Shown in pieces: positions 1-44,738 of a stretch of 64,000 bases of DNA. The position numbers and the translations under genes were made by a program. This DNA is from a virus, in the IMG/VR virus record IMGVR_UViG_3300017613_001314, positions 1 through 64,000 of that record; one strand, written 5' to 3'. Every line of letters begins with the position of its first letter. Position 1 is the first letter of the stretch. The notes beneath the pieces are model-generated. The model worked only from the letters and a program-made list of their open reading frames with translations. It made no database searches and had not been told where the DNA came from.

Positions 1-634
1 AAACGGAGATTTGATAGAAAATGTAGATGGTCTTAAAGGATGGGATTTTGGTGGTACTAATGAGCGTGGGGATGTTGCTGATAGTGCGGAACAAAGTTTA
101 CTTTCTAATTTTACTGTGGAAACATTTTATGATTTTAATAATTCAGGAGTAACTACAGAAGTATTTAATAAATTTAATTCTGGCAACACGGCAGGATGGG
201 GATTTATTATCAATGGAACTATAGGGCCATTTTTTGGTTTTAAAGTAGCTAATACTACTTATACACGTTATGCAAGATTGGATATTCCTACTGGAGTAAA
301 TTATTTTGGTGGTTATTATCCAGGAGACGGAAATGATCCAAGTATAGTTTTTAATCAAAATCACGAAACATCTTGGGATAAAGATTCAGGTGGAGCAGGA
401 GCATTAAATGGAATAACTGATTCAGGACAAGCAGTTAAATTTGCTTACGGTAATACTTTTCATGGCTCAACACTTTATGGAATTGTTAAAGTTTTTGAAT
501 GTAGATATTCTAAAGTTGAAAGAAATGTAGATTGGAGACAAGCAACTTATCATTCCTTAATTGATAATTTAATTACATTTGAAAGAAGCATTAGTTCATC
601 AAGCATAAGTAGTTCGAGCAGTAGTACAGCATAA
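1..634 (+). CDS. Structural-like protein with a C-terminal poly-Ser tail; the 5' end lies outside the window
   Basis: The frame is open from position 2, and the TTG at 11 is only the first in-window start. It is Gly/Asn/Thr-rich and ends SISSSSISSSSSSTA. Confidence 0.5.
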   Translation, partial: NGDLIENVDGLKGWDFGGTNERGDVADSAEQSLLSNFTVETFYDFNNSGVTTEVFNKFNSGNTAGWGFIINGTIGPFFGFKVANTTYTRYARLDIPTGVNYFGGYYPGDGNDPSIVFNQNHETSWDKDSGGAGALNGITDSGQAVKFAYGNTFHGSTLYGIVKVFECRYSKVERNVDWRQATYHSLIDNLITFERSISSSSISSSSSSTA

Positions 635-682: not shown

Positions 683-1891
683 ATGGCGGCATGGGAAGCA
701 ACAAGACTTAGAAGAAGATATAAAAATCTATCTTGTGGAACAGATGAAGCAGAATTATATGCATTTATACAGTGGTTAGAAGAAAGATTCATTTACTCAA
801 GTTCAAGTACTTCTTCGAGTTCATCTAGTTCAAGTAGTGTATCATTCAGTTCATCGAGTCAGAGTTCAACTAGTTCTAGCTCAAGCAGTGTATCAATTAG
901 TTCAAGCAGTACTTCATCGAGTTCAAGCAGTACTTCATCGAGTTCAAGTTCGAGTTCATCGAGTTCGAGCCTTAGCAGTTCTAGCTCTTCGAGCAGTGGA
1001 TCGTCAAGTTCATCATCAAGTAGCACTTCATCGAGCAGTAGTTCTGACTCATCGAGCAGTAGTTCAACATCAAGTAGTAGTTTCTCTTGTTATATTACAC
1101 CAGATGATGATTTCGATCAACCAGATGGAACACTACCTGATACACAAAAATGGACATATCCAACTTCGGCAGGTATTATGATAATAAGCGGCGGCGAACT
1201 TATAATGGGCGTAGATAGTATAGAAAATCTATCTAAGATAAAATCAAGATGGGCTATACAACCACTTGAAAATTTTGATGTTCAAACTGACTGGAGAGAA
1301 ATATCAACAGACCCAACGTCCAGATGGAATGTAGGATTTGAAGTACTACAATTTAACGACACCAAAGGCACAAGAATTTATAAGAGAGCCTATACAACTA
1401 CAATAACAGAAGAACTAGTATCCGGTGCTACTATAGTTAGTAATACAAATGTCACAGCAGCAGCAACTAGCGGTTCATTTAGAATCACCAGAATCGGTCA
1501 GGATTGGCAGTCATATTATTGGAATGGATCAGCTTGGGTTCCAGTCGGTGGTCCTTATACATTAGAGACCATTAACCCTGTAAATGTAAGATTGTATTTA
1601 GATAATAGTGATTCAACACCAAGTGTATCAGCGGCATTTGATAACTTCCTAATGGTTAGTGGTGGGTTCATCTGTCCGGGTAGCAGTTCTAGTTCATCGA
1701 GCAGTACTTCATCGAGCAGTACTTCATCGAGCAGTAGTTCTAGCACGAGTTCCAGTTCATTGAGTAGTACTTCATCGAGCAGTACTTCATCGAGCAGTAG
1801 TTCACTAAGTTCAAGCAGTTCAAGTTCAAGTGAGTCATCAAGTTCAAGAAGTTCAAGTTCTGAAAGTGAGTCAATAAGCATAACACCATAA
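683..1891 (+). CDS. Protein with N- and C-terminal poly-Ser/Thr linkers flanking a central beta-rich globular domain (possible lectin/adhesin or fibre-like)
   Basis: 402-aa ORF. Residues ~38-130 and ~335-402 are almost pure S/T, encoded by AGY/TCN repeats. The central domain is non-repetitive. Confidence 0.6.
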   Translation: MAAWEATRLRRRYKNLSCGTDEAELYAFIQWLEERFIYSSSSTSSSSSSSSSVSFSSSSQSSTSSSSSSVSISSSSTSSSSSSTSSSSSSSSSSSSLSSSSSSSSGSSSSSSSSTSSSSSSDSSSSSSTSSSSFSCYITPDDDFDQPDGTLPDTQKWTYPTSAGIMIISGGELIMGVDSIENLSKIKSRWAIQPLENFDVQTDWREISTDPTSRWNVGFEVLQFNDTKGTRIYKRAYTTTITEELVSGATIVSNTNVTAAATSGSFRITRIGQDWQSYYWNGSAWVPVGGPYTLETINPVNVRLYLDNSDSTPSVSAAFDNFLMVSGGFICPGSSSSSSSSTSSSSTSSSSSSSTSSSSLSSTSSSSTSSSSSSLSSSSSSSSESSSSRSSSSESESISITP

Positions 1892-2256
1892 TGAAATTTA
1901 AAAAATACATAGATGATTTCAGAAATTTAAATATCGGCATCGTTGATAAGGATACCGGGAACAAGGAACTTGTACGCAAGGTTCAAGAGGAATTTAAATT
2001 AGAAAGTGACGTAGTTAATCAGATAGATGCGCTAAATAAGTTACTGAAGAGGAAGTCAAAATTTGATTTCATACTCGGTGATAGTGTAGAAAGCTCTATC
2101 TTGGAAAAGAAATTTAGAATTAAGAAACGGTCAATGGACAAGCTCAAAATGAAATTCTTAGAAATGAGTAGTGAGCTTGCCAAGACCAAAAGAGAAGTAG
2201 AAAACAAAATATCACTTCAATCTGACGGGTCTACAAAAGATACCGGTATAGTCTAG
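1891..2256 (+). CDS. Hypothetical K/E-rich protein
   Basis: 121-aa ORF whose ATG overlaps the upstream stop (ATGA). Same-strand operon context. Confidence 0.45.
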   Translation: MKFKKYIDDFRNLNIGIVDKDTGNKELVRKVQEEFKLESDVVNQIDALNKLLKRKSKFDFILGDSVESSILEKKFRIKKRSMDKLKMKFLEMSSELAKTKREVENKISLQSDGSTKDTGIV

Positions 2257-2299: not shown

Positions 2300-3274
2300 G
2301 TGAGACAATTAGCGCATAGGTATGTGTTGACGGAAAACTGTAATGCGACTTGTAAGCACTGCTTTAATGCAGAAGCAAGAGATAAAGGGGTGATGGATGC
2401 AGACCTTTTTATAGAATTTGTAAGAAAAAACTCTATTAATTTATCAGGTGTGGTCTGTAAAATTATGGGAGGAGAACCAACTCTTCATCCAAGAATAATT
2501 GAAATTGCTTTAGAAGCATCTAAACACTATGGTTTAGTAGATATTTTTACCAATGGATCAAGGTTGAATAAAATTACTAAACATCCAAATATAATCAAAG
2601 AGCATTTTAAAGATAAAATAGGGTATATCATAAATGGTTATGTATTTGACTTAGATCAGTACGAACAGTATAAAGAATTTGTTAAACAGTTATGTCTACA
2701 TTTTGTAATAACTCCATGGGGATATAAAGAAACACTTCAAAAGATGTATGACTGTATGGATTATCAAAATGATACTGATCTTCAATACTTAATATCATGT
2801 GATACGCAAGTTGATTTATTTAATCAAGAAGAGTTAAACATTTACAGAAAAATATGGTTAGAATTTATCAAAGAAATTATACCAGCTTTACAGAATAGAG
2901 GTATACAATGGGCAACAGATCATAAATTTCCAGCCTGTTTTTTCACACAAGAAATGCTAGATGAATTAAATCTCGTTGATCTTGGTAATTTTCACTTTGG
3001 TGTTTCATGTTGCCAGTGTCCTGATATTGGATTGATAGATTGGAATTGGGATTTTTGGTATTGTAATCAAACTAGGATAAAACTAGGTTCTGTTTTAAAG
3101 GAGAGTGGTGAATTAAAAACAGTAGTGGATTTAATGAATGAATATATTACACCATCACATGGTTTTAAAACAGAATGCATTAAAAATTTAAGAACAGAGT
3201 GTAATGATTGTCCTGCAGTGAGTTCATGTAGGGTAGGTTGTTATTACAATACACTCGTTAAGCACTGTAGTTAA
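2300..3274 (+). CDS. Radical SAM enzyme with C-terminal SPASM/twitch-like Cys-rich domain
   Basis: CNATCKHC (Cx3Cx2C) sits at residues 14-21 and GGEPTLHP is present. The C-terminus has CCQCPD...C...CNDCPAVSSCRVGC auxiliary-cluster cysteines. GTG start with AAAGGAG RBS. Confidence 0.8.
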   Translation: MRQLAHRYVLTENCNATCKHCFNAEARDKGVMDADLFIEFVRKNSINLSGVVCKIMGGEPTLHPRIIEIALEASKHYGLVDIFTNGSRLNKITKHPNIIKEHFKDKIGYIINGYVFDLDQYEQYKEFVKQLCLHFVITPWGYKETLQKMYDCMDYQNDTDLQYLISCDTQVDLFNQEELNIYRKIWLEFIKEIIPALQNRGIQWATDHKFPACFFTQEMLDELNLVDLGNFHFGVSCCQCPDIGLIDWNWDFWYCNQTRIKLGSVLKESGELKTVVDLMNEYITPSHGFKTECIKNLRTECNDCPAVSSCRVGCYYNTLVKHCS

Positions 3275-3285
3275 AGGAGGGAAAA

Positions 3286-3837
3286 ATGAAATTTTCTGGC
3301 ATTGAAATGGAAGGATATTTTAAGGCACAGATTGTAGCAAACGCTAGTTTTCTACCATATACATCGGACGATGAAGGAAGAATAGTATATGATGAAGCAA
3401 CAAAGTCATTATGGATAGCAGATGATACAGATTGGAAATCAACGGGAGAATATAACAATATTCCAGAAAACTCGGTAATGTGGGTTTATGCTGATTCTCC
3501 ACCAGATGGATGGTCTTTATTCGCATCAAGTGGTGATAGACTTCTTGCAATTAAAGGTGGTTCTACTTATAATGTAGGTAGTCAGGTAAAGGGTTCATGG
3601 GCCACACCGTCTCATCAACACTCATTACAGAACCATACACATACAGCACAGGGTAATACAGGTCCACCAAGTGCTAATAATTCTTCATATGATACATCAA
3701 CATGGTCCAGATTACCGAATCACTACCACCCTATTAGTTCAGCAACATCTGGTCCAAGTACTAATGTAACGGGTATAGGTGGTTCGGCGAGTACTTATAG
3801 ACCAAGAGCCCGTGTAGGAATACTATGTTCAAGATAA
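3286..3837 (+). CDS. Phage tail-collar domain (MdpB-like) protein, paralog 1
   Basis: The MW..PPDGW..GD.LLA.KGG...G and His-rich P.H.HSL.NH.H motifs are typical of the tail-collar fold. The N-terminal 50 aa are conserved with the next two ORFs. One Cys lies in the C-terminal YRP..RVGILC motif. AGGAGG RBS. Confidence 0.7.
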   Translation: MKFSGIEMEGYFKAQIVANASFLPYTSDDEGRIVYDEATKSLWIADDTDWKSTGEYNNIPENSVMWVYADSPPDGWSLFASSGDRLLAIKGGSTYNVGSQVKGSWATPSHQHSLQNHTHTAQGNTGPPSANNSSYDTSTWSRLPNHYHPISSATSGPSTNVTGIGGSASTYRPRARVGILCSR

Positions 3838-3849
3838 GGAGAAAATAAA

Positions 3850-4401
3850 ATGAAGTTTCATGGAATTACAATGAAAGGAGAGTATAAAGCTCAAATAGTG
3901 GTAGATGCTAGTACTCTGCCATATACTATTAGTGATGAAAGGAGAATAGTATATGACCAAACAACAAAACAACTGTGGATAGCTGATAGTTCCGAGTGGA
4001 AATCAGCCGGTCAAAACGGAGATATACCCATAGGAACAGAAATGTGGTTTTATGCTAACTCAGCACCAGATGGATGGACTTTAAATGGAACACCAAGTGA
4101 CCAGTTACTCGCAGTTGAAGGCGGTAGTACTTATACCACAGGTGGTGCGGCCGCAGGTAGTTTTACTATGCCAAATCACTCACATAGTTTAAACAGTCAT
4201 ATTCACCGCTTTGCAGGAAACACATCTACGTTAAATCGTTACATACATAAAGGTGATGATTATGTCGCAGGAGTAGGCACTCACTATCATACATATGATA
4301 TAGGGTCAACTGGTCCGAGTCCGAGCACAACTGATAGTAGTGGTAGTGTAGCAGGGTACAGACCAGAATCACATGTAGGTATAATTTGTACAAAAAATTA
4401 A
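3850..4401 (+). CDS. Phage tail-collar domain (MdpB-like) protein, paralog 2
   Basis: Same architecture as 3286-3837. C-terminal YRPESHVGIIC. AAGGAG RBS. Confidence 0.7.
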   Translation: MKFHGITMKGEYKAQIVVDASTLPYTISDERRIVYDQTTKQLWIADSSEWKSAGQNGDIPIGTEMWFYANSAPDGWTLNGTPSDQLLAVEGGSTYTTGGAAAGSFTMPNHSHSLNSHIHRFAGNTSTLNRYIHKGDDYVAGVGTHYHTYDIGSTGPSPSTTDSSGSVAGYRPESHVGIICTKN

Positions 4402-4413
4402 AGGAGAAAAACA

Positions 4414-4971
4414 ATGGATTTTCATGGCATTGAAATGCAAGGATATTTTAAAGCACAGACTGTATTAGACGCTAGTGCTTTATCATGGGTACCTAATGAT
4501 GAGGGCAAGATAGTATTTGATGAAACAACAGAAGATTTATGGATAGCAAATGATACAGATTGGGTAAGTTCTAGTAGGTATGTTGATACACCTTTAGGCA
4601 CAGAAATGTGGATTTATGATAGCTCAGCACCAGATGGATGGAGCATAAGTGCTGTTGCTGGAGATGAACTACTTGCGGTTAAAGGTGGTACTTATGCGGT
4701 AGGTGGTACGGTATATGGTAGTTGGAGCACACCAACCCACGCACATACACTGAGCAATCATACTCACTCTACAAGTGGAACTGTAGGACAAAACTATTCA
4801 AACTCTTTTGGAAGCAATCGTTCCGGTGGTGATGAAGTTGTAGGATACCATAGTTCTCATACATATAGTGCGACCAGTTATACACTAACACCATCGAATA
4901 CAGACACGAGCGGTTCGGTAAGTACTTATAGACCAGAGTCTCGTGTAGGATTAATTTGTGAAAGAACTTAA
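4414..4971 (+). CDS. Phage tail-collar domain (MdpB-like) protein, paralog 3
   Basis: Same architecture. C-terminal YRPESRVGLIC. AAAGGAG RBS. Confidence 0.7.
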   Translation: MDFHGIEMQGYFKAQTVLDASALSWVPNDEGKIVFDETTEDLWIANDTDWVSSSRYVDTPLGTEMWIYDSSAPDGWSISAVAGDELLAVKGGTYAVGGTVYGSWSTPTHAHTLSNHTHSTSGTVGQNYSNSFGSNRSGGDEVVGYHSSHTYSATSYTLTPSNTDTSGSVSTYRPESRVGLICERT

Positions 4972-4982
4972 AAGGAGATAAA

Positions 4983-5345
4983 ATGATAAAACGTGAATTA
5001 GAACCAACCTGTATGGGAGAAACATGTCCATTTTGGTCAGTGGATGATGATAGTAGAGTAATATGTCCAATGTTTATTCAAACAATTTGGTCAGTTAAAG
5101 GTAGCAACCAACCAAAAACAGTGAATGATTGCGCACCTAAAAGAAATACTCTACTACTAATGGATTACTCAGAAAGAGCAATAGGTATTCAGCAAGATTA
5201 TGAGGGACAGCGAAATAAATATGAAAAAGTACTAGTTAAGGTAAGTGACATATTTGAAGAGGTTCAGAAGAGAAATAAAATGTTGGAAGAAAAGCTATGC
5301 TTAGAAGAACCCGAAAATGTAGACTTTACGAAAGCATTAGAATAA
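4983..5345 (+). CDS. Small Cys-containing hypothetical protein, last gene of the rSAM operon
   Basis: 120 aa with five Cys (TCMGETCPFW, ICPMF). AAGGAG RBS lies 7 nt upstream. Confidence 0.5.
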   Translation: MIKRELEPTCMGETCPFWSVDDDSRVICPMFIQTIWSVKGSNQPKTVNDCAPKRNTLLLMDYSERAIGIQQDYEGQRNKYEKVLVKVSDIFEEVQKRNKMLEEKLCLEEPENVDFTKALE

Positions 5346-5348
5346 CAG

Positions 5349-5377
5349 TTTACTTTTACTAACTGCTCTGATATAAT
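5349..5377 (+). promoter_or_regulatory. Sigma70-like early promoter P1 (TTTACT-N17-TATAAT) upstream of gp55
   Basis: -35 TTTACT, 17-nt spacer, -10 TATAAT followed by AAGT. The same motif recurs at five other sites. Confidence 0.5.
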
Positions 5378-24704: not shown

Positions 24705-25320
24705 TTTCCTCTCTCAATTTTCTAAACAAATATCTATTATGTGGTCTTTGTTTAGAGTTAACTTTTATTCTTTTAAATCCATTTCCTTCAAGTAGTTTAA
24801 TCACTTCCTTCGGACTGCTAAAACAGAAATAATGTGCCCAAGGTGTAGGCACAGGTTCTTTCTTCTGAAGTGGAACCACTACAAGTATTCTACCATTTGT
24901 TTTGAGTACTCTTTTTATTCCCTTGATTACCTTATCTGGATCGGGACAATGCTCGAGAGTATGAATTATACTCACAAAATTAAATTCCTCGTCTGGAAAC
25001 GGTAGCTCTTGGGCGTCACCTCTTACCACATTATGACCCTTTTTCCTAGCAATTTCAAGTGCTTTTTCTGAAATGTCTATACCTCGTAGATTTTTAAATT
25101 TAGCTTTCTTAAGTATATCCATCCACATACCATCACGGCATCCTATGTCAAGCATTTTCCATTTTCTACTTATAAGTCCTTTGACGAACTTATAGGTATT
25201 CAATTTGTTTCTTCTCTTTTGACCCAAATAAACTCTATTGGTAAGCATTTTTAAAAGCTTTTCTGTTTTCTTCTCGTTTACCTTTAAATATTCTTTTTCG
25301 CTCATATCTGTAAGTGCCAT
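24673..25320 (-). CDS. Class I SAM-dependent methyltransferase
   Basis: Motif I MLDIGCRDG, plus an acidic motif II. Confidence 0.65.
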   Translation of the reverse strand: MALTDMSEKEYLKVNEKKTEKLLKMLTNRVYLGQKRRNKLNTYKFVKGLISRKWKMLDIGCRDGMWMDILKKAKFKNLRGIDISEKALEIARKKGHNVVRGDAQELPFPDEEFNFVSIIHTLEHCPDPDKVIKGIKRVLKTNGRILVVVPLQKKEPVPTPWAHYFCFSSPKEVIKLLEGNGFKRIKVNSKQRPHNRYLFRKLREENDETKDTTNN

Positions 25321-27251
25321 TTTTGTTGAAATCTGACAGAACTATTACCAGCATGTTGTTGGTCATGTCTATATGTTCTATATTTCTTATATGACTCTGA
25401 TCCCTTATTCTTAAAATTTAGTGCTTTATAATCTGGTATTGCTAAAATACCTAACTTCCAATTACTCTTTCTCATTTGCATACAGAAGTCAATATCTGCC
25501 CAACCAACATAGTAAAGATGGTCATAGTCACATGTTTCAAATACTTCTCTTCTCATTATCATACTTGCTGATCCCATACCATCAACCAAACCAAATGGTG
25601 ATTTTGGTTGTTTGTACACCATTTTACTTTGGCCTTTAAACCAAGCGTTCAGATTTGGATGAACCCAAAGATCAACGGCGCCATAATCTGGATGATCTTC
25701 TAATATGGAAATAAGTGCTTCGATTGAGCCAGGTGGGAAAAACATATCATCGTCAGTGGTCATAATATATGGAGTATCAAATTTAAGTGCTTCATGGACA
25801 ATATTATGTCTTGGAACGCCCGTGCCTCTATTTGAAAAGGTGAAATTTAAAAAGCTTCTATCAAAATACTCTTCAACTTTATCTTCAATCTGATCTTTTT
25901 TTATATCAGACAACCACTCTTTACCCTGAACGTTAAATGCTATGTTAGATTTTATAAATCTATTTCTATCCCAGTGATCCAACATATTCAACATAGTATT
26001 TGTTCTTAAAAGTGAAAGCATCGCTACGCTTAAAATAGTTTTTTCTGAATTAAAAACTCTTTCAAGAGTACCTCTATTAAAACCAGTCCACATCTTAGTC
26101 AAATCTGTAATGACTTCTTCTTTAGTGAAATCAGCCGGTTGCTCATTACGGACAATAACATTTCTTAAGTTATCAATTCTCATGTAATCAGGTAATACGT
26201 ATTTTACTTTTTGATTGCCCTTGTGTACGGACTTATTTTTGTTTCCCCAATTATTACCTATTACATTTAACTCATTGCCCCATTGATTCCTTGTCCACCT
26301 CATCATTTCTCTTGCTTTTAAAGCAATCTTGTTATTTCTTGGGGTGTTCTTTGAATGGTAAAGATGAATACTATCTAAATTCAACGTCTTAAATGGGTAT
26401 CCAAAAGCTCTAAGTTTTCCTGCTAAAGCATTATCAGGTCCACCCCAAGTACCTTCAAAGTTTTCAGGTACTCCTTTTATTTGAAAAAATATATCTCTTG
26501 GTATTACAGTTATGCCGCCAGCGGGTCCGTCAAATCTTGGTGTTTTTATCATTTCACTTTTTTCTTCTAAAGCAAATTCATTAAATATACCTCTCTCACC
26601 ATCATTTAATAACCTTTTCATAAAGTTTCCAGTTTCAACGTAATTGAGATAGTACATTTTACTCCAAGCCACTGCGGGATAGTCACAATGCTTTACCATT
26701 TGAAAAAAGTTATCTGGTATAATTACATCAGCATCTAATAAAACTAACTTCTTACCAGTCGCCAAATGTCTCGCACCAAGATTTAGCGCCCATCCTCTAT
26801 GCATCATATTAGAATAATAAATAAACATGTACTCAAAGTCTTCAGGTTGTAAGAAAACATTTCTCTTCTTACCAATTTCAACTACACAAACTTCAACATT
26901 ACTACTCAGTGAGGATATACAGGATAGAAGTAATGGATACCTTTCAGGTGTATGCATATAAGGAATAACAACAGAAATTTCAGGTCCAAATGACATTCTC
27001 TTCTTAGCTTCTCTTTTTCTTTTCCTTAACTCAGCATGTGATATATTGGACTTGCCTTCTTCCATGACCACATTTCTTTTTCTTGATCTTAATTCTGCAT
27101 GTGATGGATAAACACTCTGTTTTATTCTTTGAATTTCATGTTTCAAATCATCTAACTGATTACTGCTCATTTTGTCTATCTTATTAGCACGTCCTTCACC
27201 AAAGAATTTTAAAGTATCCTTTCTAAGTAACTGAAGTTCTATGTTGTTCAT
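25302..27251 (-). CDS. Two-domain GT-A glycosyltransferase (two GT2-like modules)
   Basis: ISVVIPYMH and later PYIMTTDDDMFFPPGS (DxD). The N-terminus carries a duplicated SHAELRxRKR peptide. 649 aa. Confidence 0.65.
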   Translation of the reverse strand: MNNIELQLLRKDTLKFFGEGRANKIDKMSSNQLDDLKHEIQRIKQSVYPSHAELRSRKRNVVMEEGKSNISHAELRKRKREAKKRMSFGPEISVVIPYMHTPERYPLLLSCISSLSSNVEVCVVEIGKKRNVFLQPEDFEYMFIYYSNMMHRGWALNLGARHLATGKKLVLLDADVIIPDNFFQMVKHCDYPAVAWSKMYYLNYVETGNFMKRLLNDGERGIFNEFALEEKSEMIKTPRFDGPAGGITVIPRDIFFQIKGVPENFEGTWGGPDNALAGKLRAFGYPFKTLNLDSIHLYHSKNTPRNNKIALKAREMMRWTRNQWGNELNVIGNNWGNKNKSVHKGNQKVKYVLPDYMRIDNLRNVIVRNEQPADFTKEEVITDLTKMWTGFNRGTLERVFNSEKTILSVAMLSLLRTNTMLNMLDHWDRNRFIKSNIAFNVQGKEWLSDIKKDQIEDKVEEYFDRSFLNFTFSNRGTGVPRHNIVHEALKFDTPYIMTTDDDMFFPPGSIEALISILEDHPDYGAVDLWVHPNLNAWFKGQSKMVYKQPKSPFGLVDGMGSASMIMRREVFETCDYDHLYYVGWADIDFCMQMRKSNWKLGILAIPDYKALNFKNKGSESYKKYRTYRHDQQHAGNSSVRFQQKWHLQI

Positions 27252-27254
27252 TAA

Positions 27255-28415
27255 TTATCTCCACTTAATTTTCGGTATAACTACATCTTTTAATTCACTT
27301 AAGTCATTTGATGCTAGAACATCAAATACATAATCTACTTCCTGGTAGATTGTCCTTGTTGGTTTATAACCAAAGCTCGCAAGCTTTTCTGTTGAGTACT
27401 TATAGTAATGATTACCAGTGTACTCTGTTCTTGGTGATGGAATATGCTGAGCGCTCACATCCAATCCTCTTGACTCGGCTACTTCAATTACCATACCAGC
27501 AATTTCATTCATTGAATGCCATTCAGATAACTGATTCCATACTTGAACATGACCACACTCAGGCTCGTTTTCTACTGCAATCATAAGTGCTTGTACGCTA
27601 TCATTGAGTGATATGAATCCTCTTTGATGCTTACCTTCACCATAAATGGTCAACGGAATACCAAGAAGAGTCTGCACAATAAATCGGTTGATTACAGTAC
27701 CACCAGCTTCATCACTATCTAACCTACTATAAATTTTACTTTTATCTATATCATCTGTGTAAGCACCGAATACTACTGACTGTTGGACGTCAGTACATTT
27801 CAATTCCCAGGTTCTACATAGAAAATCAATCAGATAAGTTGATGAAGTCTTTGAAGTATGGTAGATTGACCCAGGTCTACGTGGGTAAATCATTTCAACT
27901 GACTCTCTACCTTTATGATTGATCTTAATATAACCTTCTTCAATGTCTATATTACTATAGTGATCGTACTCACCTGTCGTACCAATAGTAATATAATGGC
28001 AATTAGGGACATATTCCCTCATAAGCCATAACATGTTGTTGGTTCCTAATAAATTATTTTCAAGTGTGGTTTTTGCGTGTTCACGCGAGATTTGACTATA
28101 TGGTCCTGATGGTATGTGAGCCAGATTGACTATAATATCAGGCTTATATGTTTCAAAAATTGCCCGTAATTCATCAACGGGTTCTTTTGATATATCAATA
28201 TTATGAAAATAAAATTCGCTTAACTTCTTAAAACGTTTTATTTTGTCCATCATTTGCATAACTGGCGTAGCAGACTTTGACTCCATGTCGTCTTGTATCC
28301 ATCGCCTTCGTAGAAAATTATCTATGCCAATTACTCTGTATCCCTCTTTTAAAAGTCTTTGGGTAAGGGCGTTACCTATGTACCCATCGCATCCTGCGAC
28401 TAAAACAGTTTTCAT
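27255..28415 (-). CDS. UDP-sulfoquinovose synthase (SQD1)-like SDR enzyme
   Basis: VLVAGCDGYIGNALTQRL...IGIDNFLRRR matches SQD1 GGDGYCGW...DNLVRR. GTTGEYD matches SQD1 GTMGEYG. The catalytic IYHTSK matches SQD1 YHLSK. 386 aa, close to the SQD1 length. Confidence 0.65.
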   Translation of the reverse strand: MKTVLVAGCDGYIGNALTQRLLKEGYRVIGIDNFLRRRWIQDDMESKSATPVMQMMDKIKRFKKLSEFYFHNIDISKEPVDELRAIFETYKPDIIVNLAHIPSGPYSQISREHAKTTLENNLLGTNNMLWLMREYVPNCHYITIGTTGEYDHYSNIDIEEGYIKINHKGRESVEMIYPRRPGSIYHTSKTSSTYLIDFLCRTWELKCTDVQQSVVFGAYTDDIDKSKIYSRLDSDEAGGTVINRFIVQTLLGIPLTIYGEGKHQRGFISLNDSVQALMIAVENEPECGHVQVWNQLSEWHSMNEIAGMVIEVAESRGLDVSAQHIPSPRTEYTGNHYYKYSTEKLASFGYKPTRTIYQEVDYVFDVLASNDLSELKDVVIPKIKWR

Positions 28416-28436
28416 CTTTCTCCCCCTGTACTACTT

Positions 28437-29411
28437 TTACATTTCTTCTAGTATTCTTATCATGTGATCTGCTCTATTCTCACATTTATGAAATTTACGG
28501 ATAAATTCATATCCACTATTTTGTAACCTTCTTAGTTGTTTCTTATCACTTAAAAGTGACTTCATTTGACTGTGTAATTTGTTGTAATCAGCAACAACCA
28601 TATTTTCACCGTCTTTAAATCCAAGATCAGCTAATTCCTGAAACCAATTAGAAACCAACAAGCTCTTTGAAGCCGGAATCTCAAAGTACTTCATTACAGG
28701 AAAATCAAAAATACTACCACCTGTGATACATATTTCTGATTGATTTAATAATTTAGCATAGTCTTCACCTACTGGCCATTTATCATAGATTCTATCACCA
28801 ACATTTGACTCAACTGGTCTATCAATTTTTCTAAAATATGGCCTATTTTTTAATAACTTATGTGCCTTTGTTCTGTTTGGATATACCTTTTCAGAGCACT
28901 GACCCACCATTAAAACATCATACTGTTTCTTTAACTTATAATCTTTAAACATTTCTGTGTCAATAGAATGTGGCAACCAAGCACATCTAATTCTTTCAGC
29001 CACATGTCTATAATTTTTTAAGAATGATTTTTTATACTTATAGAAAATAATATCAAACTCATTATCTAAAGCCCATGTCATTTGAAGAGTTGGATTTACT
29101 CCGAATTGGCTATCTTCTATTATCATGGCTTTAGGAATTTTTATATTTTTCCAATTCTCATGGACATATACAAAATCAGCATCAGTAACTATGAAGTCAT
29201 AATTCTTTTGTTTTAGATGATTTTCAAGTATTTTTTGTGGTTTTATATCACCTTTTAAAACCGATGTGCAATAATTACCTGTCTTATAACCATGTGGTAC
29301 ATCTCTAAATACAAAATCCACATCAGCAACTTTGCGTAGTGCTTTTTGGAATTGAGTGAAGTGAGTTGCTACTCTTATTGACCTGTCGACGGATAGGAAT
29401 AATATCTTCAT
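28437..29411 (-). CDS. Putative GT-B glycosyltransferase
   Basis: The C-terminal ICITGGSIFDFPVMKYFEIPASKSLLVSNW resembles the GT1 donor-binding region. Weak call. Confidence 0.4.
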   Translation of the reverse strand: MKILFLSVDRSIRVATHFTQFQKALRKVADVDFVFRDVPHGYKTGNYCTSVLKGDIKPQKILENHLKQKNYDFIVTDADFVYVHENWKNIKIPKAMIIEDSQFGVNPTLQMTWALDNEFDIIFYKYKKSFLKNYRHVAERIRCAWLPHSIDTEMFKDYKLKKQYDVLMVGQCSEKVYPNRTKAHKLLKNRPYFRKIDRPVESNVGDRIYDKWPVGEDYAKLLNQSEICITGGSIFDFPVMKYFEIPASKSLLVSNWFQELADLGFKDGENMVVADYNKLHSQMKSLLSDKKQLRRLQNSGYEFIRKFHKCENRADHMIRILEEM

Positions 29412-40586: not shown

Positions 40587-41870
40587 CTATTCAGTTCCGG
40601 CTTGGATTGAAAGATCAAGTCCAAGTTGTTTAGCAGTCATAATGTTAATCATCTGCATAAACTGTCTGGTTTGTAAGTCAAGATTTCCATCAGAACTTCC
40701 GGCTTCACCCGCACCACCAGTTTGGTAATAAGCAGGTACATTTCTTCGAGCATAAGCATCAGCCCAATCTTTCTGGACTGCTTCGAAGGTAGAAAGCTTT
40801 TGTTTCAAAGCACCATCAGCGGCCAATACCAGTCTACGTTTTTCAGCAAGACCTTGCCCGTCGAGGATGTTTCTTTCTTTATTAAGTTTGGCGGCATCTC
40901 TTTCAAGAGCGGCAAATTCTTTCATCTGCTGACCTTGAATGACCTTAACTTCTTTAGCCTGTTGAGCGGCAACAACCGCACGAATTTTCTCTTGTTCCTT
41001 TTCGTACTTAGCGGTAGCAACCTTAGCTTTACCTTCAGCTTCAATGGTTAATCTGTCCTGCTCAGCTTTTTCAGCTTTTGCCTTGGCGGTCTCAACGGCC
41101 ATTCGGGCTTCCTGCTGACTTGCGATCTGTTTCTGAACTTTTTTCTCATAAACAAATGACTTAATTTCAAAGTTCTTCAACTCGATCCCGGTTCCTTCCA
41201 TCGGATTCATCTGATACATCGGCAGACCATCTTCACCCATTCTGATCTTTTTAACTCGTTTCCAGATTTTCTCACCGGTTACCAGGTCTTCAACTTCTTT
41301 CGTTGTTTCCTCAGTAACATAAACACCATTGGTGATCTGGTCACGTGACCAAGTTACGAAGTCGGGTCGTTTTTCAGAGTAGGATTCTCTTGCGGACATA
41401 AGGTTAGCAGTTGAACGGAGTACATTTCGTACTGTAGGTTTGATAAGTTTTTCTTGAACATCTTTGTAAGTCTTATGACCTCTAACAGTAGTCAAAGCAA
41501 TTGCCTCGTCTTTTGTTGTTGGCATAATAACACGTGCGGTTCCAGAAATTTTACACATCGACCCATCATTAAACCTTACTTCCATTGATGTATCAATATC
41601 AATGTCACCTTCGGTATCATTGTCGTGTGTAAAAAAGAATGTATCAGCTTTGGGCCATACATCAATATCACCCCATGCTTGTAACCACAGACCTGGGGTC
41701 ATTTTGGCGTCCATAGTACCACTAACGGCCGCCTGTTTTACTTGATACGTGCCTTTTTCGACAGTATCAACGATCATCGGTAGGCTCATAGCACCGATTA
41801 CGACTAATACAGCAACAAATCCAAGTCCAATCATGCTTTTCAAGCCCATCTTCTTTTTTCCACTTCTCAT
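40587..41870 (-). CDS. SPFH/band-7-like membrane protein (putative)
   Basis: N-terminal transmembrane segment, a beta-rich domain, then a ~150-aa Ala/Lys/Glu coiled coil typical of HflK/flotillin-like proteins. 427 aa. Confidence 0.45.
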   Translation of the reverse strand: MRSGKKKMGLKSMIGLGFVAVLVVIGAMSLPMIVDTVEKGTYQVKQAAVSGTMDAKMTPGLWLQAWGDIDVWPKADTFFFTHDNDTEGDIDIDTSMEVRFNDGSMCKISGTARVIMPTTKDEAIALTTVRGHKTYKDVQEKLIKPTVRNVLRSTANLMSARESYSEKRPDFVTWSRDQITNGVYVTEETTKEVEDLVTGEKIWKRVKKIRMGEDGLPMYQMNPMEGTGIELKNFEIKSFVYEKKVQKQIASQQEARMAVETAKAKAEKAEQDRLTIEAEGKAKVATAKYEKEQEKIRAVVAAQQAKEVKVIQGQQMKEFAALERDAAKLNKERNILDGQGLAEKRRLVLAADGALKQKLSTFEAVQKDWADAYARRNVPAYYQTGGAGEAGSSDGNLDLQTRQFMQMINIMTAKQLGLDLSIQAGTE

Positions 41871-42500: not shown

Positions 42501-44738
42501 CTATGAGCATTTACTATGACCACATGCTGGACAATTGAAACAACCTTCCATTGCAGTCATAAAGTTACCACATTTCTCGCAGATTTCTCCACCGAGTTCT
42601 CCGTTGTACCTCACCCCAGTATAATACCTATCAAGTAGTTTAGCTACACCATCGGGGATGCTCAGTATTTGTGTTGGTCTTTGATCCGTATCTTCGAAAC
42701 GGTACCAAACCATCTTATCACTATTTATATTTATCAAAGTTTTAGTAATTTCTTCTACTGGCACGCCCTGCTGTAGACCTATTGATATTACTCTACCCAT
42801 TGCTTCTGTTAGGGTATTAAGGATTTGACCACTCTTACCAAGAAAAATAAATAATTCTAGTGGCTTACCCTTATGATGTGAAACGGTCACATACATCTTA
42901 CCATTTCCTGTTTCGACTACATGAGTCTTAGCATCAAGAGTTTTCGGTCTATCAAATACTTCTACCTTCTTTATTTCTTCTGAGAATGTTACTGGTTGGT
43001 TCTTCTTACTGCCATCACGGTATACAGTTATACCTTTCAAACCTTTTTTATACGCATATTCATATAAATCAGCCATTTCCGTAGCTGTTGTTTCTTTCGA
43101 CAAATTTACAGTACTTGAAATAGCCGTTGAGCAGTGCTTCTGTAAGGCCGCTTGCATGTCTATTCTGTCTTTGTACTTAATGTCATGGGCTGTCACAAAT
43201 ACATTTTTGACTTCTTTTGGAATACCACGAAGTCCTTTTAACGATCCGCCGTTTTTAAATATTTTATCAGGTAATTCTGTCGAGTACCAATCCTCATTCT
43301 TGAATCGTTCTTCAAAAACAGGATTGACTACAGTCATTGTATCACCTGAAATGAGATTTTTTTGAAAACTTAATCCCATAATTGGCTCTATGCCATAAGA
43401 GGCATCACACGAAAGTGCTGTTGTTCCAGTAGGTTGGCATGTAGTGAACTGACAATTTCTTACGCCATGTTCTCTTACCAAATCCATTGTTACCTTATCA
43501 CTGCCGGTGTGTTCCTCTAAAATTCTCTCAACTTCTTCCTTATGTGTTTCATAATTATGAAATGATCCCTTTTTTCTCGCTAGCTCTGTGCTTCTAAATG
43601 CACACGCGCAAGTCATTACTCGCATAACTTCCGTAGCAAATTTTCTTCCATCAGCACCATCATACCTATAACCTAATGTATACATGGCATCCGCTAGTCC
43701 CATCGGACCTATTCCAACTGGTCTATGATTGAGAGTATTAGTTCTAAATCTTTGTCTACCAAGAATATCATCGTCATCCGGAAAATCCATTACATCAATC
43801 AGATTATCCATTAAACCCATGACTTTATATGTAGTCTGATATAAACCATCCCAATCAAAATCACCTATTCCCTTGGCAAACTTCCAAATATTTATAGCCG
43901 ATAGGTTACACGCATTAAATGGCCACAAAGGTTGTTCACCACATGGGTTTGTAGCCTCTATAAGTAATTCTTTTACCAATGGATTATACTTGTTCATTGC
44001 ATCAATGAAGAGTACACCTGGATCAGCATTTTTCCAAGACATTTGAGATATTTCTTCCCATACTTCTTGTGGGTCTACCTGTCCAACCTTTCTACCATCA
44101 TAAGGTGAAATAAGGTCAAAAGGAACCTTGTCCTCTAAGGCCTGCATGAACTTATCCGTAATAAGTACTGATATGTTCATATTAGATAATCTACCGTCTT
44201 TTTCTTTACACCTAATAAAGTCCATTATATCAGGGTGCCATACTGGCATAGAAACCAGAATAGCCGCCCGTCTAACTCGGCCACCTGACTTGGTGGTCTC
44301 CCCCACGGCATCATATAACTTCATAAAAGTTATCGGACCTGATGATTTTCCCTCTGGTAGTTTCTCTTCGTTACCCTCAAAAATCCAAGATTCCTTTTCC
44401 CTTAAATTGCCAATAGGAATACCAACACCGGCACCATACTGAAATATTTTTCTACAAACATCAGCTACATCGTAAATACTATTCATACTATCTTCTAGTC
44501 CTACGACATAACATGCTGAAAATACTTTATGTTTGGTGCCGGCATTTAAAAACACCGGGGTATTGGGTCTCCAATAACCCTGTGATAATAACCTATATGC
44601 TAGCTCTTCTTCTTTTTTGTTTGTTGCAAATTCTTTTGATACTCTCTTAAATGTATCCTCTATTGACTCCTCTTGAAATGAATATAAATCTTTAAAAATT
44701 TTTACTGCGTTTTCACTTAAACTAAAATTATCACTCAT
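42501..44738 (-). CDS. Ribonucleotide reductase catalytic chain, probably class II (NrdJ-like, single chain)
   Basis: The conserved RNR core TNPCGEQPLWPFNACNLS is present. The C-terminal zinc ribbon CEKCGN...CFNCPACGHSKCS is typical of monomeric class II enzymes. No adjacent NrdB. 745 aa. Confidence 0.8.
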   Translation of the reverse strand: MSDNFSLSENAVKIFKDLYSFQEESIEDTFKRVSKEFATNKKEEELAYRLLSQGYWRPNTPVFLNAGTKHKVFSACYVVGLEDSMNSIYDVADVCRKIFQYGAGVGIPIGNLREKESWIFEGNEEKLPEGKSSGPITFMKLYDAVGETTKSGGRVRRAAILVSMPVWHPDIMDFIRCKEKDGRLSNMNISVLITDKFMQALEDKVPFDLISPYDGRKVGQVDPQEVWEEISQMSWKNADPGVLFIDAMNKYNPLVKELLIEATNPCGEQPLWPFNACNLSAINIWKFAKGIGDFDWDGLYQTTYKVMGLMDNLIDVMDFPDDDDILGRQRFRTNTLNHRPVGIGPMGLADAMYTLGYRYDGADGRKFATEVMRVMTCACAFRSTELARKKGSFHNYETHKEEVERILEEHTGSDKVTMDLVREHGVRNCQFTTCQPTGTTALSCDASYGIEPIMGLSFQKNLISGDTMTVVNPVFEERFKNEDWYSTELPDKIFKNGGSLKGLRGIPKEVKNVFVTAHDIKYKDRIDMQAALQKHCSTAISSTVNLSKETTATEMADLYEYAYKKGLKGITVYRDGSKKNQPVTFSEEIKKVEVFDRPKTLDAKTHVVETGNGKMYVTVSHHKGKPLELFIFLGKSGQILNTLTEAMGRVISIGLQQGVPVEEITKTLININSDKMVWYRFEDTDQRPTQILSIPDGVAKLLDRYYTGVRYNGELGGEICEKCGNFMTAMEGCFNCPACGHSKCS

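What the first reader, a model, noticed from the sequence alone, without database searches (positions are those of the whole stretch)
2300..5345. Radical SAM/SPASM enzyme co-operonic with three tandem tail-collar (MdpB-like) paralogs each carrying one conserved C-terminal Cys
Five genes are spaced 11-13 nt apart, each with a strong AGGAG RBS. The rSAM enzyme (Cx3Cx2C + GGEPTLHP + SPASM-like C-terminal Cys cluster) is followed by three 183-185-aa paralogs and then a small Cys-containing protein. The paralogs share a nearly identical 50-aa N-terminus, a tail-collar core and a His-rich P.H.HSL.NH.H motif. Each has exactly one Cys in a conserved C-terminal YRP(E/R)..VG(I/L)(I/L)C motif. SPASM rSAM enzymes classically form Cys-derived thioether or other cross-links on co-encoded substrates. 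The 'enzyme + multiple paralogous substrates' layout resembles RiPP clusters but with protein-sized substrates, suggesting post-translational cross-linking of virion fibre or collar proteins. The conserved N-terminus could be a recognition element.
Basis: partly seen in the sequence, partly recalled or inferred. Interest (0 to 1): 0.6.

Follow-up and report, generated by a model that had tools for sequence, protein, structure and literature searches.

The report
Phage fibre cassette with radical-SAM enzyme
An uncultured T4-like phage carries a five-gene cassette in which a widespread module (fibre-like protein genes followed by a small partner gene) has gained a radical-SAM enzyme of unknown substrate, and comparison with related contigs argues against the C-terminal cysteine being its target.

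Summary
There are five + strand genes 11-12 nt apart, each with a GGAG ribosome-binding site. They encode a radical-SAM enzyme (CX3CX2C, GGEPT, invariant CX2CX5CX3C), three paralogs of 183-185 aa (48-49% identical, one Cys each) and a 120-aa Cys-containing protein.

The paralogs belong to a large family of phage fibre-like proteins, and the 120-aa protein is that family's usual downstream neighbour: it follows 37 of 48 distinct arrays. Only 8 of those 48 arrays have the rSAM nearby.

The "conserved Cys" position is C, A, I, L or V across the family. A second rSAM-linked clade has paralog-like proteins with no Cys at all. The shared N-terminus is a module also found on rSAM-less proteins of 190-1789 aa, so it looks like an anchor domain, not a leader.

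The rSAM belongs to a family seen only in phage-like and metagenome contigs. It has no RRE domain and folds most like SuiB, SkfB and anSME. About half of its lineages lack the paralogs.

Within this clade, however, the five genes are inherited as one unit, once between unrelated flanks. An rSAM modification of a cassette protein therefore remains plausible (about 0.45) but unproven. Moderate interest.

The parts
2300..3274 (+). Radical-SAM enzyme of SPASM type with no RRE domain (324 aa). It belongs to a family found only in phage-like and metagenome contigs.
   Evidence: It scores 44.4 bits on PF04055 and matches phrog_1802. CX3CX2C lies at C14/C18/C21. Seven further conserved Cys include the invariant C301x2C304x5C310x3C314. 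The AF2 model has pLDDT 91 and pTM 0.89. The top Foldseek matches in the PDB are SuiB (E 1.7e-8, TMq 0.60), SkfB and anSME. No homolog above 30% identity exists in 185,579 species genomes.
3286..3837 (+). Paralog 1 (183 aa), a fibre-like protein. It has an N-terminal anchor module, a PDGW core, HxH motifs and a C-terminal RPxxxVGILC strand.
   Evidence: Alignments are. Positional orthologs are 54-59% identical in most related contigs. The family HMM matches at E 1e-74. The AF2 monomer has pLDDT 71 and pTM 0.32.
3850..4401 (+). Paralog 2 (183 aa), same architecture.
   Evidence: Positional orthologs are 56-65% identical, against 41-54% for the other two positions.
4414..4971 (+). Paralog 3 (185 aa), same architecture.
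   Evidence: Positional orthologs are mostly 57-63% identical (49-51% in L210 and L212).
4983..5345 (+). 'small5' (120 aa), with four conserved Cys (C10, C15, C28, C50) and a helical or coiled-coil-like tail. It is the conserved downstream partner of the paralog family and a candidate assembly factor or adaptor.
   Evidence: phmmer gives E 1e-8 to 1e-19 against ORFs directly 3' of paralog-family genes in rSAM-less viral loci. The conserved motif is GTC..KCPF...CPNYxExWW...DCAPKR. It lies directly downstream of 37 of 48 distinct arrays. It is 77-88% identical within the clade, more conserved than the rSAM (61-67%).
5349..5377 (+). Sigma-70-like promoter match (TTTACT-17-TATAAT with TG) between small5 and the gp55-like gene. 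It may mark the start of the next transcription unit.
   Evidence: This is a consensus match only, and the number of such matches in the region equals the chance expectation.

Best explanation
The block is a self-contained five-gene cassette in the host-recognition neighbourhood of an uncultured T4-like phage.

Its core is a widespread phage virion module. It consists of one to three tandem genes for short fibre-like proteins, followed by a roughly 120-aa four-Cys partner (small5). Each fibre-like protein has an N-terminal anchoring or oligomerisation module, a P-x-G-W core, HxH motifs and a final RPxxxVGII(C/A/I/L/V) strand. HxH motifs of this kind bind metal ions on the axis of trimeric phage fibres. 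The partner most likely helps the fibre fold or attach, as fibre chaperones encoded 3' of fibre genes do.

That core works without any radical-SAM enzyme in most phages. In this lineage an rSAM/SPASM enzyme has been recruited in front of the core. It lacks an RRE domain and belongs to a family seen only in phage-like and metagenome contigs. It is translated from the same tightly packed gene string and is inherited together with the core.

My inference is that the enzyme adds an optional radical-mediated modification, such as a cross-link, oxidation or epimerisation, to one of the cassette's proteins. It would recognise a local motif on the unfolded chain, as anSME does, and not a leader peptide. 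The site is not the C-terminal Cys, which is a hydrophobic strand residue.

Shown: the gene anatomy, the family memberships, the co-inheritance and the independence of the two families. Inferred: the virion role of the paralogs, the chaperone or adaptor role of small5, and any rSAM action on them.
For: Core module:
- The small5 family lies directly 3' of paralog-family genes in 37 of 48 distinct arrays. The arrays hold 1 (38 cases), 2 (11) or 3 (6) tandem copies.
- In other phages the module sits inside structural clusters: in the order portal, major head, tail protein, paralog, small5, virion structural protein; or directly before the portal gene.
- The N-terminal module heads several proteins of different length in one locus. 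L160 has 224, 285 and 1789 aa. L208 has 190 and 275 aa by HMM, plus a 574-aa protein whose N-terminus shows the same motif by eye.
- 14 of 73 family members weakly hit Pfam Gp10_C.
- The monomer model has a low pTM, as expected for an obligate oligomer.

rSAM class:
- CX3CX2C, GGEPT and the invariant CX2CX5CX3C are present.
- The best folds are SuiB, SkfB, anSME, TigE, ChlB and PqqE.
- The nearest cellular cousin (27% identity, Phocaeicola) follows two tandem OS_HP2-domain proteins.

Link between the rSAM and the core:
- The cassette is intact in about 10 distinct contigs.
- In L214 and L215 exactly these five genes (56-80% aa identity) sit between flanks with no similarity to the window's.
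- The paralog family is the only neighbour family shared across independent rSAM lineages. It occurs as two copies about 630 nt upstream in L045 and L050 (one in the shorter L054) and 18 nt upstream in L010.
Against: - Five rSAM lineages with at least 5 kb of flank on each side lack any paralog or small5. They are the L001 type, the L004 type, the L006/L015/L052 type, L014, and L047/L209. There the rSAM sits among NUDIX/HD/cytidylyltransferase genes, among nucleotide-metabolism genes, or between a 921-aa glycosyltransferase and two methyltransferases.
- 40 of 48 paralog arrays have no rSAM nearby.
- In T4-like phages long co-directional, tightly spaced gene strings are the norm, so spacing alone is weak evidence of coupling.
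- No residue or motif specific to the rSAM-linked paralogs was found.
- The fibre assignment rests on context and weak profile hits. There was no significant match to a solved structure.
- small5 has no Pfam or PHROG match and no NCBIfam match near threshold.
Confidence: 0.45

Rival explanations
1. The rSAM is an independent accessory gene of the hypervariable host-recognition region. Its substrate lies outside the cassette. Candidates are a sugar nucleotide or glycan used to decorate fibres or the host envelope, the neighbouring poly-Ser adhesin-like proteins, or a host protein. Under this view it sits next to the paralogs because both families live in the same plastic region.
For: In L209 and L047 the rSAM lies between a 921-aa glycosyltransferase and two methyltransferases (Methyltransf_24, CmcI-like). 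In the L001 and L004 types it is near cytidylyltransferase, NUDIX, HD, cupin and glycosyltransferase genes. In the L006 type it is among nucleotide-metabolism genes. Pelagimyophage host-recognition clusters are reported to gain and lose radical-SAM cassettes beside tail-fibre and glycosyltransferase genes (PMC7029224). Sugar-modifying rSAMs (DesII, BlsE) and viperins also score as fold relatives. The window has its own glycosyltransferase/epimerase cassette at 25.3-29.4 kb.
Against: The five genes move together into an unrelated context in L214 and L215. The paralog family is the only neighbour recurring across rSAM lineages. The best fold matches, which are also the matches with the fullest coverage, are SPASM peptide- or protein-modifying enzymes (TMq 0.52-0.61, against 0.40-0.53 for the sugar and nucleotide enzymes). 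Seven conserved auxiliary Cys suggest two auxiliary clusters. By my knowledge of the family, that is typical of SPASM enzymes and not of twitch-type sugar enzymes.
Confidence: 0.35
2. The rSAM forms a Cys-derived thioether (or similar) cross-link at the single conserved C-terminal Cys of each paralog, and the conserved N-terminus serves as the recognition element, as in a RiPP cluster with protein-sized substrates.
For: Every paralog of the window clade listed has at least one Cys, and the C-terminal VG(I/L)(I/L)C Cys is present in all. The one exception is a chimeric-looking entry, P0155. The SPASM fold resembles thioether-forming SkfB. The final eighth Cys of the SPASM motif is not conserved, which could leave an open cluster site.
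Against: The Cys position is A, I, L or V in many family members (VGIIA, VGIII, VGIIL, VGIIV), and it is Cys in dozens of members with no rSAM nearby. The L045 paralog-like proteins, which are rSAM-linked, have no Cys at all. The N-terminal module occurs on rSAM-less proteins of 190-1789 aa. The enzyme has no RRE domain, because CX3CX2C starts at residue 14.
Confidence: 0.06
3. small5, not the paralogs, is the rSAM substrate. Its conserved Cys50 lies in C-A-P-K-R, which formally matches the C/S-x-P/A-x-R motif that the SPASM enzyme anSME converts to formylglycine.
For: The motif DC(A/L/V)(P/V/I)(K/I/V)R is conserved in the small5 family. anSME is among the top three fold matches. A divergent small5-like four-Cys protein lies directly downstream of the rSAM in L010, with marginal support (E 0.014).
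Against: The motif is equally conserved in the many small5 genes without an rSAM. The four Cys look like a structural metal site. The rSAM does not reach any anSME family model. The L045 clade has the rSAM and paralogs but no small5.
Confidence: 0.04

Closest known systems
SPASM-domain radical-SAM protein and peptide maturases (anSME, SuiB, SkfB, PqqE, QhpD)
   Same: It has CX3CX2C, GGE and a C-terminal CX2CX5CX3C Cys cluster. The full-length fold match has TMq 0.52-0.61. Like anSME and QhpD, it has no N-terminal RRE domain and would have to act on a protein-sized substrate.
   Different: Sequence identity is only 12-17%. No equivalog or SPASM HMM reaches threshold. The last Cys of the seven-Cys SPASM motif is not conserved, and the spacing of the first C...G...C part differs. 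The substrate is unknown and the family is restricted to phage-like contigs.
RiPP gene clusters with several precursor paralogs
   Same: The layout is one enzyme gene followed by several paralogous candidate substrates in one tightly packed string.
   Different: The candidates are 183-185-aa fibre-like proteins with homologs in structural modules. There is no leader/core organisation, no RRE, no protease or exporter, and the two families mostly occur apart.
Phage fibre gene followed by a small assembly-chaperone gene (for example T4 gp37/gp38, or the Mu and P2 fibre/Tfa pairs)
   Same: A small conserved gene lies directly 3' of one to three fibre-like genes, inside structural clusters.
   Different: Neither the paralogs nor small5 show sequence similarity to the known fibre and chaperone families. 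small5 is a four-Cys protein with a helical tail. The chaperone role is inferred.
T4 gp10/gp11/gp12 C-terminal domains and tail-collar (MdpB-like, PF07484) proteins
   Same: The motif order is similar: IPxGT-MWFY-xxAPxGW, then LT..E.P.HTH / HxH, then GGG.aHnHG, then a terminal hydrophobic strand. 14 of 73 members hit Gp10_C weakly.
   Different: No PF07484 hit was found. The Gp10_C hits are below the gathering score (best seen 19.3 against 27 bits). hhalign against T4 gp10, gp11 and gp12 gives probabilities below 1%.
Radical-SAM genes of other large phages (Campylobacter CP220/CPt10 group, pelagimyophage host-recognition clusters, gut Myoviridae)
   Same: These are phage-encoded SPASM-like rSAMs of unknown substrate, in plastic regions of T4-like genomes. 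They are fold relatives at E 1e-7 to 1e-10 (PMC2853527, PMC7029224).
   Different: Identity is only 11-18%. No tblastn hit was found in 50,697 deposited phage genomes. None has been reported as part of a fixed cassette with fibre-like paralogs.

Membership tests
Radical SAM superfamily (PF04055) | CX3CX2C motif binding the SAM-cleaving [4Fe-4S] cluster | tested here: met
   C14, C18 and C21. C18 and C21 are invariant and C14 is nearly invariant in 39 homologs.
Radical SAM superfamily (PF04055) | Profile score above Pfam's gathering threshold, and a partial TIM-barrel fold | tested here: met
   44.4 bits against a cut-off of 29.5. The AF2 model (pLDDT 91) matches about 50 rSAM structures at E below 1e-3.
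SPASM subfamily of radical SAM enzymes | C-terminal CX2CX5CX3C core of the seven-Cys motif | tested here: met
   C301x2C304x5C310x3C314 is invariant.
SPASM subfamily of radical SAM enzymes | Upstream CX9-15GX4C element and a final downstream Cys (two complete auxiliary clusters) | tested here: inconclusive
   C213, C238, G244 and C255 are conserved but with different spacing (C238-x5-G244-x10-C255). The terminal Cys (C323) is present only in some homologs.
SPASM subfamily of radical SAM enzymes | Match to a SPASM-domain profile or to a named SPASM equivalog | tested here: not met
   Pfam reports only Radical_SAM and Fer4_12. All NCBIfam hits are far below cut-off and cover residues 4-125 only. 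JGI labels several homologs 'radical SAM protein with 4Fe4S-binding SPASM domain'.
RiPP maturase system (rSAM plus leader-bearing precursors) | RiPP recognition element (PqqD-like) fused to or next to the enzyme | tested here: not met
   The enzyme starts 13 residues before CX3CX2C. No PqqD-like hit was found in the enzyme or in the neighbours scanned, orfC and small5.
RiPP maturase system (rSAM plus leader-bearing precursors) | Consistent co-occurrence of enzyme and precursor families | tested here: not met
   40 of 48 paralog arrays have no rSAM. Five rSAM lineages have no paralog within the fetched flanks of at least 5 kb.
Phage tail collar / MdpB (PF07484) | Match to the Collar domain profile | tested here: not met
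   No PF07484 hit for the three paralogs at E 0.1, or for 73 family members at E 1. hhalign aligns T4 gp12 residues 339-383 at a probability of 0.5%.
T4 Gp10_C-type trimeric baseplate/fibre domain (PF21939) | Profile match above the gathering score | tested here: inconclusive
   14 of 73 members match, with a best E of 6.1e-5. The one shown in detail scores 19.3 bits against a cut-off of 27. None of the window's three paralogs matches.
Fibre plus downstream assembly-chaperone module | Small gene conserved immediately 3' of the fibre gene, within structural clusters | tested here: met
   37 of 48 arrays. The structural context is shown.
Fibre plus downstream assembly-chaperone module | Homology to a known fibre or chaperone family, or demonstrated trimeric fibre structure | tested here: not met
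   No significant Pfam, PHROG, PDB-sequence or Foldseek match for the paralogs or small5.
anSME (formylglycine-generating rSAM) | C/S-x-P/A-x-R motif in a co-encoded substrate, and an anSME equivalog match | tested here: inconclusive
   small5 has C50-A-P-K-R, but the motif is equally conserved without the rSAM. The enzyme matches no anSME model. The fold match to 4k39 has E 1e-6.

The most novel reading that the evidence does not exclude
A phage uses a dedicated radical-SAM/SPASM enzyme without an RRE domain to modify its own fibre-like virion proteins, or their four-Cys partner, after translation. The substrate would be protein-sized and leaderless. The modification would be an optional hardening or disguising step that some lineages have bolted onto a widespread fibre module. 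As far as the literature searched here shows, this would be the first radical-SAM maturation of a virion structural protein.
Probability: 0.3. Interest if true: 0.75.

Novelty: new variant of a known kind. Interest (0 to 1): 0.45.

Why it matters
Phage-encoded radical-SAM genes are common in large phages from low-oxygen habitats, and I found no assigned function for this class in the literature searched. This cassette is one of the few cases where co-inheritance points to a short list of candidate substrates: three fibre-like proteins and one small partner. That makes the question testable by co-expression and mass spectrometry.

Independently of the enzyme, the work defines an unannotated and widespread phage module: a fibre-like protein with a modular N-terminal anchor, followed by a four-Cys partner. 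Neither Pfam nor PHROGs covers it. It would improve the annotation of host-recognition regions in metagenomic phages.

Tried and rejected
- blastn of the 3-kb block and tblastn of the rSAM against 50,697 deposited phage genomes found nothing.
- A PDB sequence search with the paralog profile found nothing, even at E 10.
- Foldseek of the par1 monomer model gave no match below E 0.4. The top hits (collagen XV/XVIII trimerisation domains, phage tail needle and fibre) are suggestive but not significant, and I did not use them as evidence.
- hhalign of the family against T4 gp10, gp11 and gp12 gave probabilities below 1%.
- I considered a His-Xaa-Ser (HxsB/HxsC) or cyclophane-type reading of the His-rich motif. 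I set it aside because the HxH motifs are equally present in rSAM-less members, and the HxsC hit covers only the generic N-terminal region (E 2e-5, 23.6 against 267.9 bits).
- Shared 'longest contig' lengths suggested that a 46%-identity rSAM (P0046) shared a contig with three paralogs. The contig fetched for P0046 has none.
- I looked for paralog genes elsewhere in the large rSAM-only contigs. Only exact peptide patterns could be scanned, and none of those contigs was hit, so this negative is weak.
- Two alignments were too diverse for locus scanning.
- The afdb50 fold library was unavailable.
- The T4 late-promoter motif TATAAATA is absent from the first 42 kb, so expression timing could not be inferred.
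- The promoter and terminator scans found no more sites than chance expects.


Full report
**1. What is there**

The gaps between them are 11, 12, 12 and 11 nt, each with a GGAG-type ribosome-binding site.

The first protein passes Pfam's Radical_SAM threshold (44.4 against 29.5 bits) and matches phrog_1802. It has C14-x3-C18-x2-C21 and MGGEPTLHP. In an alignment of 39 homologs, C301-x2-C304-x5-C310-x3-C314 is invariant, C255 is invariant, and C213 and C238 are nearly invariant.

The three paralogs are 48-49% identical. Each has exactly one Cys, in YRPxxxVG(I/L)(I/L)C, and each has P.H.H(S/T)L..H.H. Their first 50 residues are 54-66% identical. That is somewhat above the overall level but not 'nearly identical'.

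**2. Genomic setting**

Directly downstream lie a gp55-like late sigma factor, a gp47-like SbcD nuclease, a gp46-like SbcC protein, a DNA methyltransferase and a UvsX-like recombinase. The best gp47 matches are cyanophages, at only 32-35% identity. The window is therefore a distant, uncultured T4-like phage.

Upstream lie two proteins with long poly-Ser linkers (11-634 and 683-1891) and a 121-aa protein (1891-2256). Every gene from 11 to about 20,960 is on the + strand with small gaps. Tight co-directional packing is the rule here, so on its own it is weak evidence of functional coupling.

**3. The enzyme**

The AF2 model is confident (pLDDT 91, pTM 0.89). Its best solved-structure matches are SuiB (E 1.7e-8, TMq 0.60), SkfB, anSME, TigE, ChlB and PqqE. 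These are all SPASM-type peptide- or protein-modifying enzymes. Viperins, DesII and BlsE score lower.

The profile search against PDB sequences and the NCBIfam scan align almost only the N-terminal SAM-binding region. No equivalog comes near its cut-off. CX3CX2C starts at residue 14, which leaves no room for an RRE domain.

The family has about 93 clusters in metagenomes but none in 50,697 deposited phage genomes. None closer than 30% identity was found in 185,579 species genomes. It therefore looks like a phage-only family. Fold relatives exist in Campylobacter phages, gut Myoviridae and others, at 11-18% identity.

The nearest cellular cousin that I inspected is in Phocaeicola massiliensis (27% identity). 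It follows two tandem proteins carrying an OS_HP2 (seleno)protein domain. This is a hint that the wider group acts on proteins.

**4. The paralogs belong to a large family that does not need the rSAM**

A profile search found 129 clusters. Scans of viral contigs with two alignments gave 81 loci (1.13 Mb) holding family members. Only the one from the window's own clade carries the rSAM.

After removing duplicates there are 55 distinct arrays, of one (38), two (11) or three (6) tandem copies. Of the 48 arrays with sequence available downstream, 8 have the rSAM in the fetched locus.

The C-terminal motif (W/Y)RPxxxVGII-C-xK(D/N) is conserved across the whole family. The 'Cys' position reads C, A, I, L or V, as in VGIIA, VGIII, VGIIL and VGIIV. 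That is the signature of a buried hydrophobic strand residue, not of a reactive site.

A second clade does have paralog-like genes next to the rSAM. L045 and L050 carry two copies of about 243 aa roughly 630 nt upstream, and the shorter L054 carries one. The L045 proteins contain no Cys at all and end in WRP(E/K)GRNFTRQ(T/Q)R(I/T).

**5. The N-terminus is a module, not a leader**

An HMM of the first 52 residues finds the same module, M(K/E)FHGI(E/D)MxG...LP(A/S)WTxxDEGR(I/L)(I/V)YD...W, at the start of proteins of 190 to 1789 aa in loci without an rSAM. Often several such proteins occur in one locus. L160 has 224, 285 and 1789 aa. L155 has 385 and 606 aa. L208 has 190 and 275 aa by HMM, plus a 574-aa protein whose N-terminus shows the motif by eye.

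From general knowledge of phage receptor-binding proteins, a shared N-terminal domain on proteins with different C-terminal parts is how phages hang alternative fibres on one attachment site.

**6. The small Cys protein is the family's usual partner**

A single-pass phmmer search with the 120-aa protein hits ORFs lying directly 3' of paralog-family genes in rSAM-less loci, at E 1e-8 to 1e-19. The alignment shows four conserved Cys (C10, C15, C28, C50) in GTC..KCPF...CPNYxExWW...DCAPKR, followed by a helical tail. It lies directly downstream of 37 of 48 distinct arrays.

In other phages the pair sits inside structural clusters. In L165 and L170 the order is portal, major head, tail protein, paralog, small5, virion structural protein. 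In L176 and L181 the pair lies immediately before the portal gene. The arrangement resembles a fibre gene followed by its assembly factor. This is an analogy, because neither protein matches a known family.

Other hints of a trimeric fibre or baseplate-type domain are weak. Gp10_C hits occur in 14 of 73 members, all below threshold where shown. There is a local resemblance to the gp12 collar motif that hhalign does not support. The monomer model is of low confidence. HxH motifs are known from the literature on T4 gp37, gp12 and P2-type spikes to bind metal ions on the axis of trimeric fibres. That is my knowledge and was not tested here.

**7. Is the rSAM tied to the module?**

Evidence for a tie:
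- The cassette is intact in about 10 distinct contigs.
- Across most of these contigs each paralog matches its own positional ortholog best. The triplication therefore predates the clade's divergence, and all three copies have been kept.
- In L214 and L215 exactly these five genes (rSAM 67%, paralogs 56-62%, small5 80% identity) lie between unrelated flanks. Upstream is a 1565-aa poly-Ser multi-domain protein. There is no orfB, orfC, gp55 or gp47. The conserved block thus ends precisely at the five genes.
- When the neighbours of all rSAM loci are clustered, the paralog family is the only one shared across independent lineages. L010 has it 18 nt upstream, the L045 group about 630 nt upstream, and L049 more doubtfully 3.4 kb away on the other strand.

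Evidence against a tie:
- Five rSAM lineages with at least 5 kb (mostly 8-10 kb) of flank on each side have no paralog and no small5. Their neighbours are NUDIX, HD, cytidylyltransferase and cupin genes; or nucleotide-metabolism genes; or a 921-aa glycosyltransferase with two methyltransferases.
- On a rough NJ tree the linked and unlinked rSAMs are interleaved.
- The literature reports radical-SAM cassettes coming and going within the host-recognition cluster of pelagimyophages (PMC7029224). It also reports 11-12 rSAM genes of unknown role in Campylobacter T4-like phages (PMC2853527).
- No paper linking an rSAM to a phage collar or fibre protein turned up.

**8. Most likely mechanism**

The core of the cassette is a virion fibre module: the paralogs plus small5. 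The rSAM is a lineage-specific addition that is co-expressed and co-inherited with it.

I put the chance that it modifies one of the cassette's proteins at about 0.45, at a site other than the C-terminal Cys. Recognition would be of a local motif on the nascent or unfolded chain, as with anSME.

I put the chance that its substrate lies outside the cassette (glycan, sugar nucleotide, poly-Ser adhesin or host protein) at about 0.35.

One curiosity is that small5's Cys50 sits in C-A-P-K-R, the formal anSME/FGE motif. I rate this low (about 0.04), because the motif is equally conserved where no rSAM is present.

**9. Novelty and verdict**

Phage rSAM/SPASM genes and fibre-plus-helper modules are both known kinds. 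A fixed cassette joining the two, and the paralog-plus-small5 family itself (absent from Pfam and PHROGs), appear undescribed. I class the finding as a new variant of a known kind, of moderate interest (0.45). If rSAM modification of a virion protein were shown, it would deserve about 0.75.

Noticed in passing
window 9112-11658 (+): An 848-aa protein between the gp47-like and gp46-like genes matches the major vault protein shoulder domain (PF11978, 92.7 bits), a vault repeat (PF17795) and SPFH/Band_7. A 76%-identical 843-aa ortholog sits at the same place in L216. A second Band_7 protein lies at 40587-41870 (-). A vault- or SPFH-like protein inside the recombination module of a T4-like phage is unusual.
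   Followed up: partly
window 1891-2256 (+): The 121-aa Lys-rich protein just upstream of the rSAM is 84-97% identical in relatives whose rSAM is only 61-67% identical. It is missing from the transposed cassette in L214. It has no significant family match and its function is unknown.
   Followed up: partly
window 11-634 and 683-1891 (+); L045 543-3623; L214 2-4699: Proteins with very long poly-Ser linkers between globular domains lie upstream of the cassette in every context. In L214 this is a 1565-aa protein with four repeats of a 'YLKFDLS...VYRV.RDWNQG...WNSA' domain and a C-terminal run of 'GNFIYVA...RSYSVDGSGN' repeats. They are probably adhesin- or fibre-like. The poly-Ser runs also generate spurious long ORFs in other frames.
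   Followed up: partly
window 4983-5345 (+), residues 50-54: The conserved Cys50 of small5 lies in C-A-P-K-R-x-x-L-L. This formally matches the sulfatase formylglycine motif C-x-P-x-R recognised by anSME and FGE. The motif is conserved in small5 homologs with and without a nearby rSAM.
   Followed up: partly
L047 5014-6030 and 14555-15439; L209 3197-8556: One phage contig carries two diverged copies of this rSAM family 9 kb apart. One copy is flanked by a 921-aa glycosyltransferase and by Methyltransf_24 and CmcI-like methyltransferases.
   Followed up: partly
L224 8559-10912 (Phocaeicola massiliensis DSM 17679): The nearest cellular relative of the rSAM (27% identity) directly follows two tandem proteins (287 and 131 aa) whose C-termini match the OS_HP2 (seleno)protein domain below cut-off. 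This is another layout of one enzyme with paralogous protein-sized neighbours.
   Followed up: no
window 25302-29411 (-): A sugar-modification cassette: a 649-aa family-2 glycosyltransferase, an NAD-dependent epimerase/dehydratase and a further glycosyltransferase-like protein.
   Followed up: no
whole window: The T4 late-promoter core TATAAATA occurs only 3 times, against 8.8 expected by chance, and not at all before position 42,722, although the phage encodes a gp55-like late sigma factor. Its late promoters probably differ from T4's. Coding strand and GC skew both switch at about 21 kb.
   Followed up: no
window 42501-44738 (-): A ribonucleotide reductase large subunit with a C-terminal TSCPD domain (745 aa).
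   Followed up: no
L018 716-2136; L049 5077-5355; L001 7284-7511: In several rSAM lineages that lack the paralogs, small very Cys-rich proteins (76-111 aa, 8-12 Cys) abut the rSAM gene. They could be alternative substrates or Fe-S/Zn partners.
   Followed up: no
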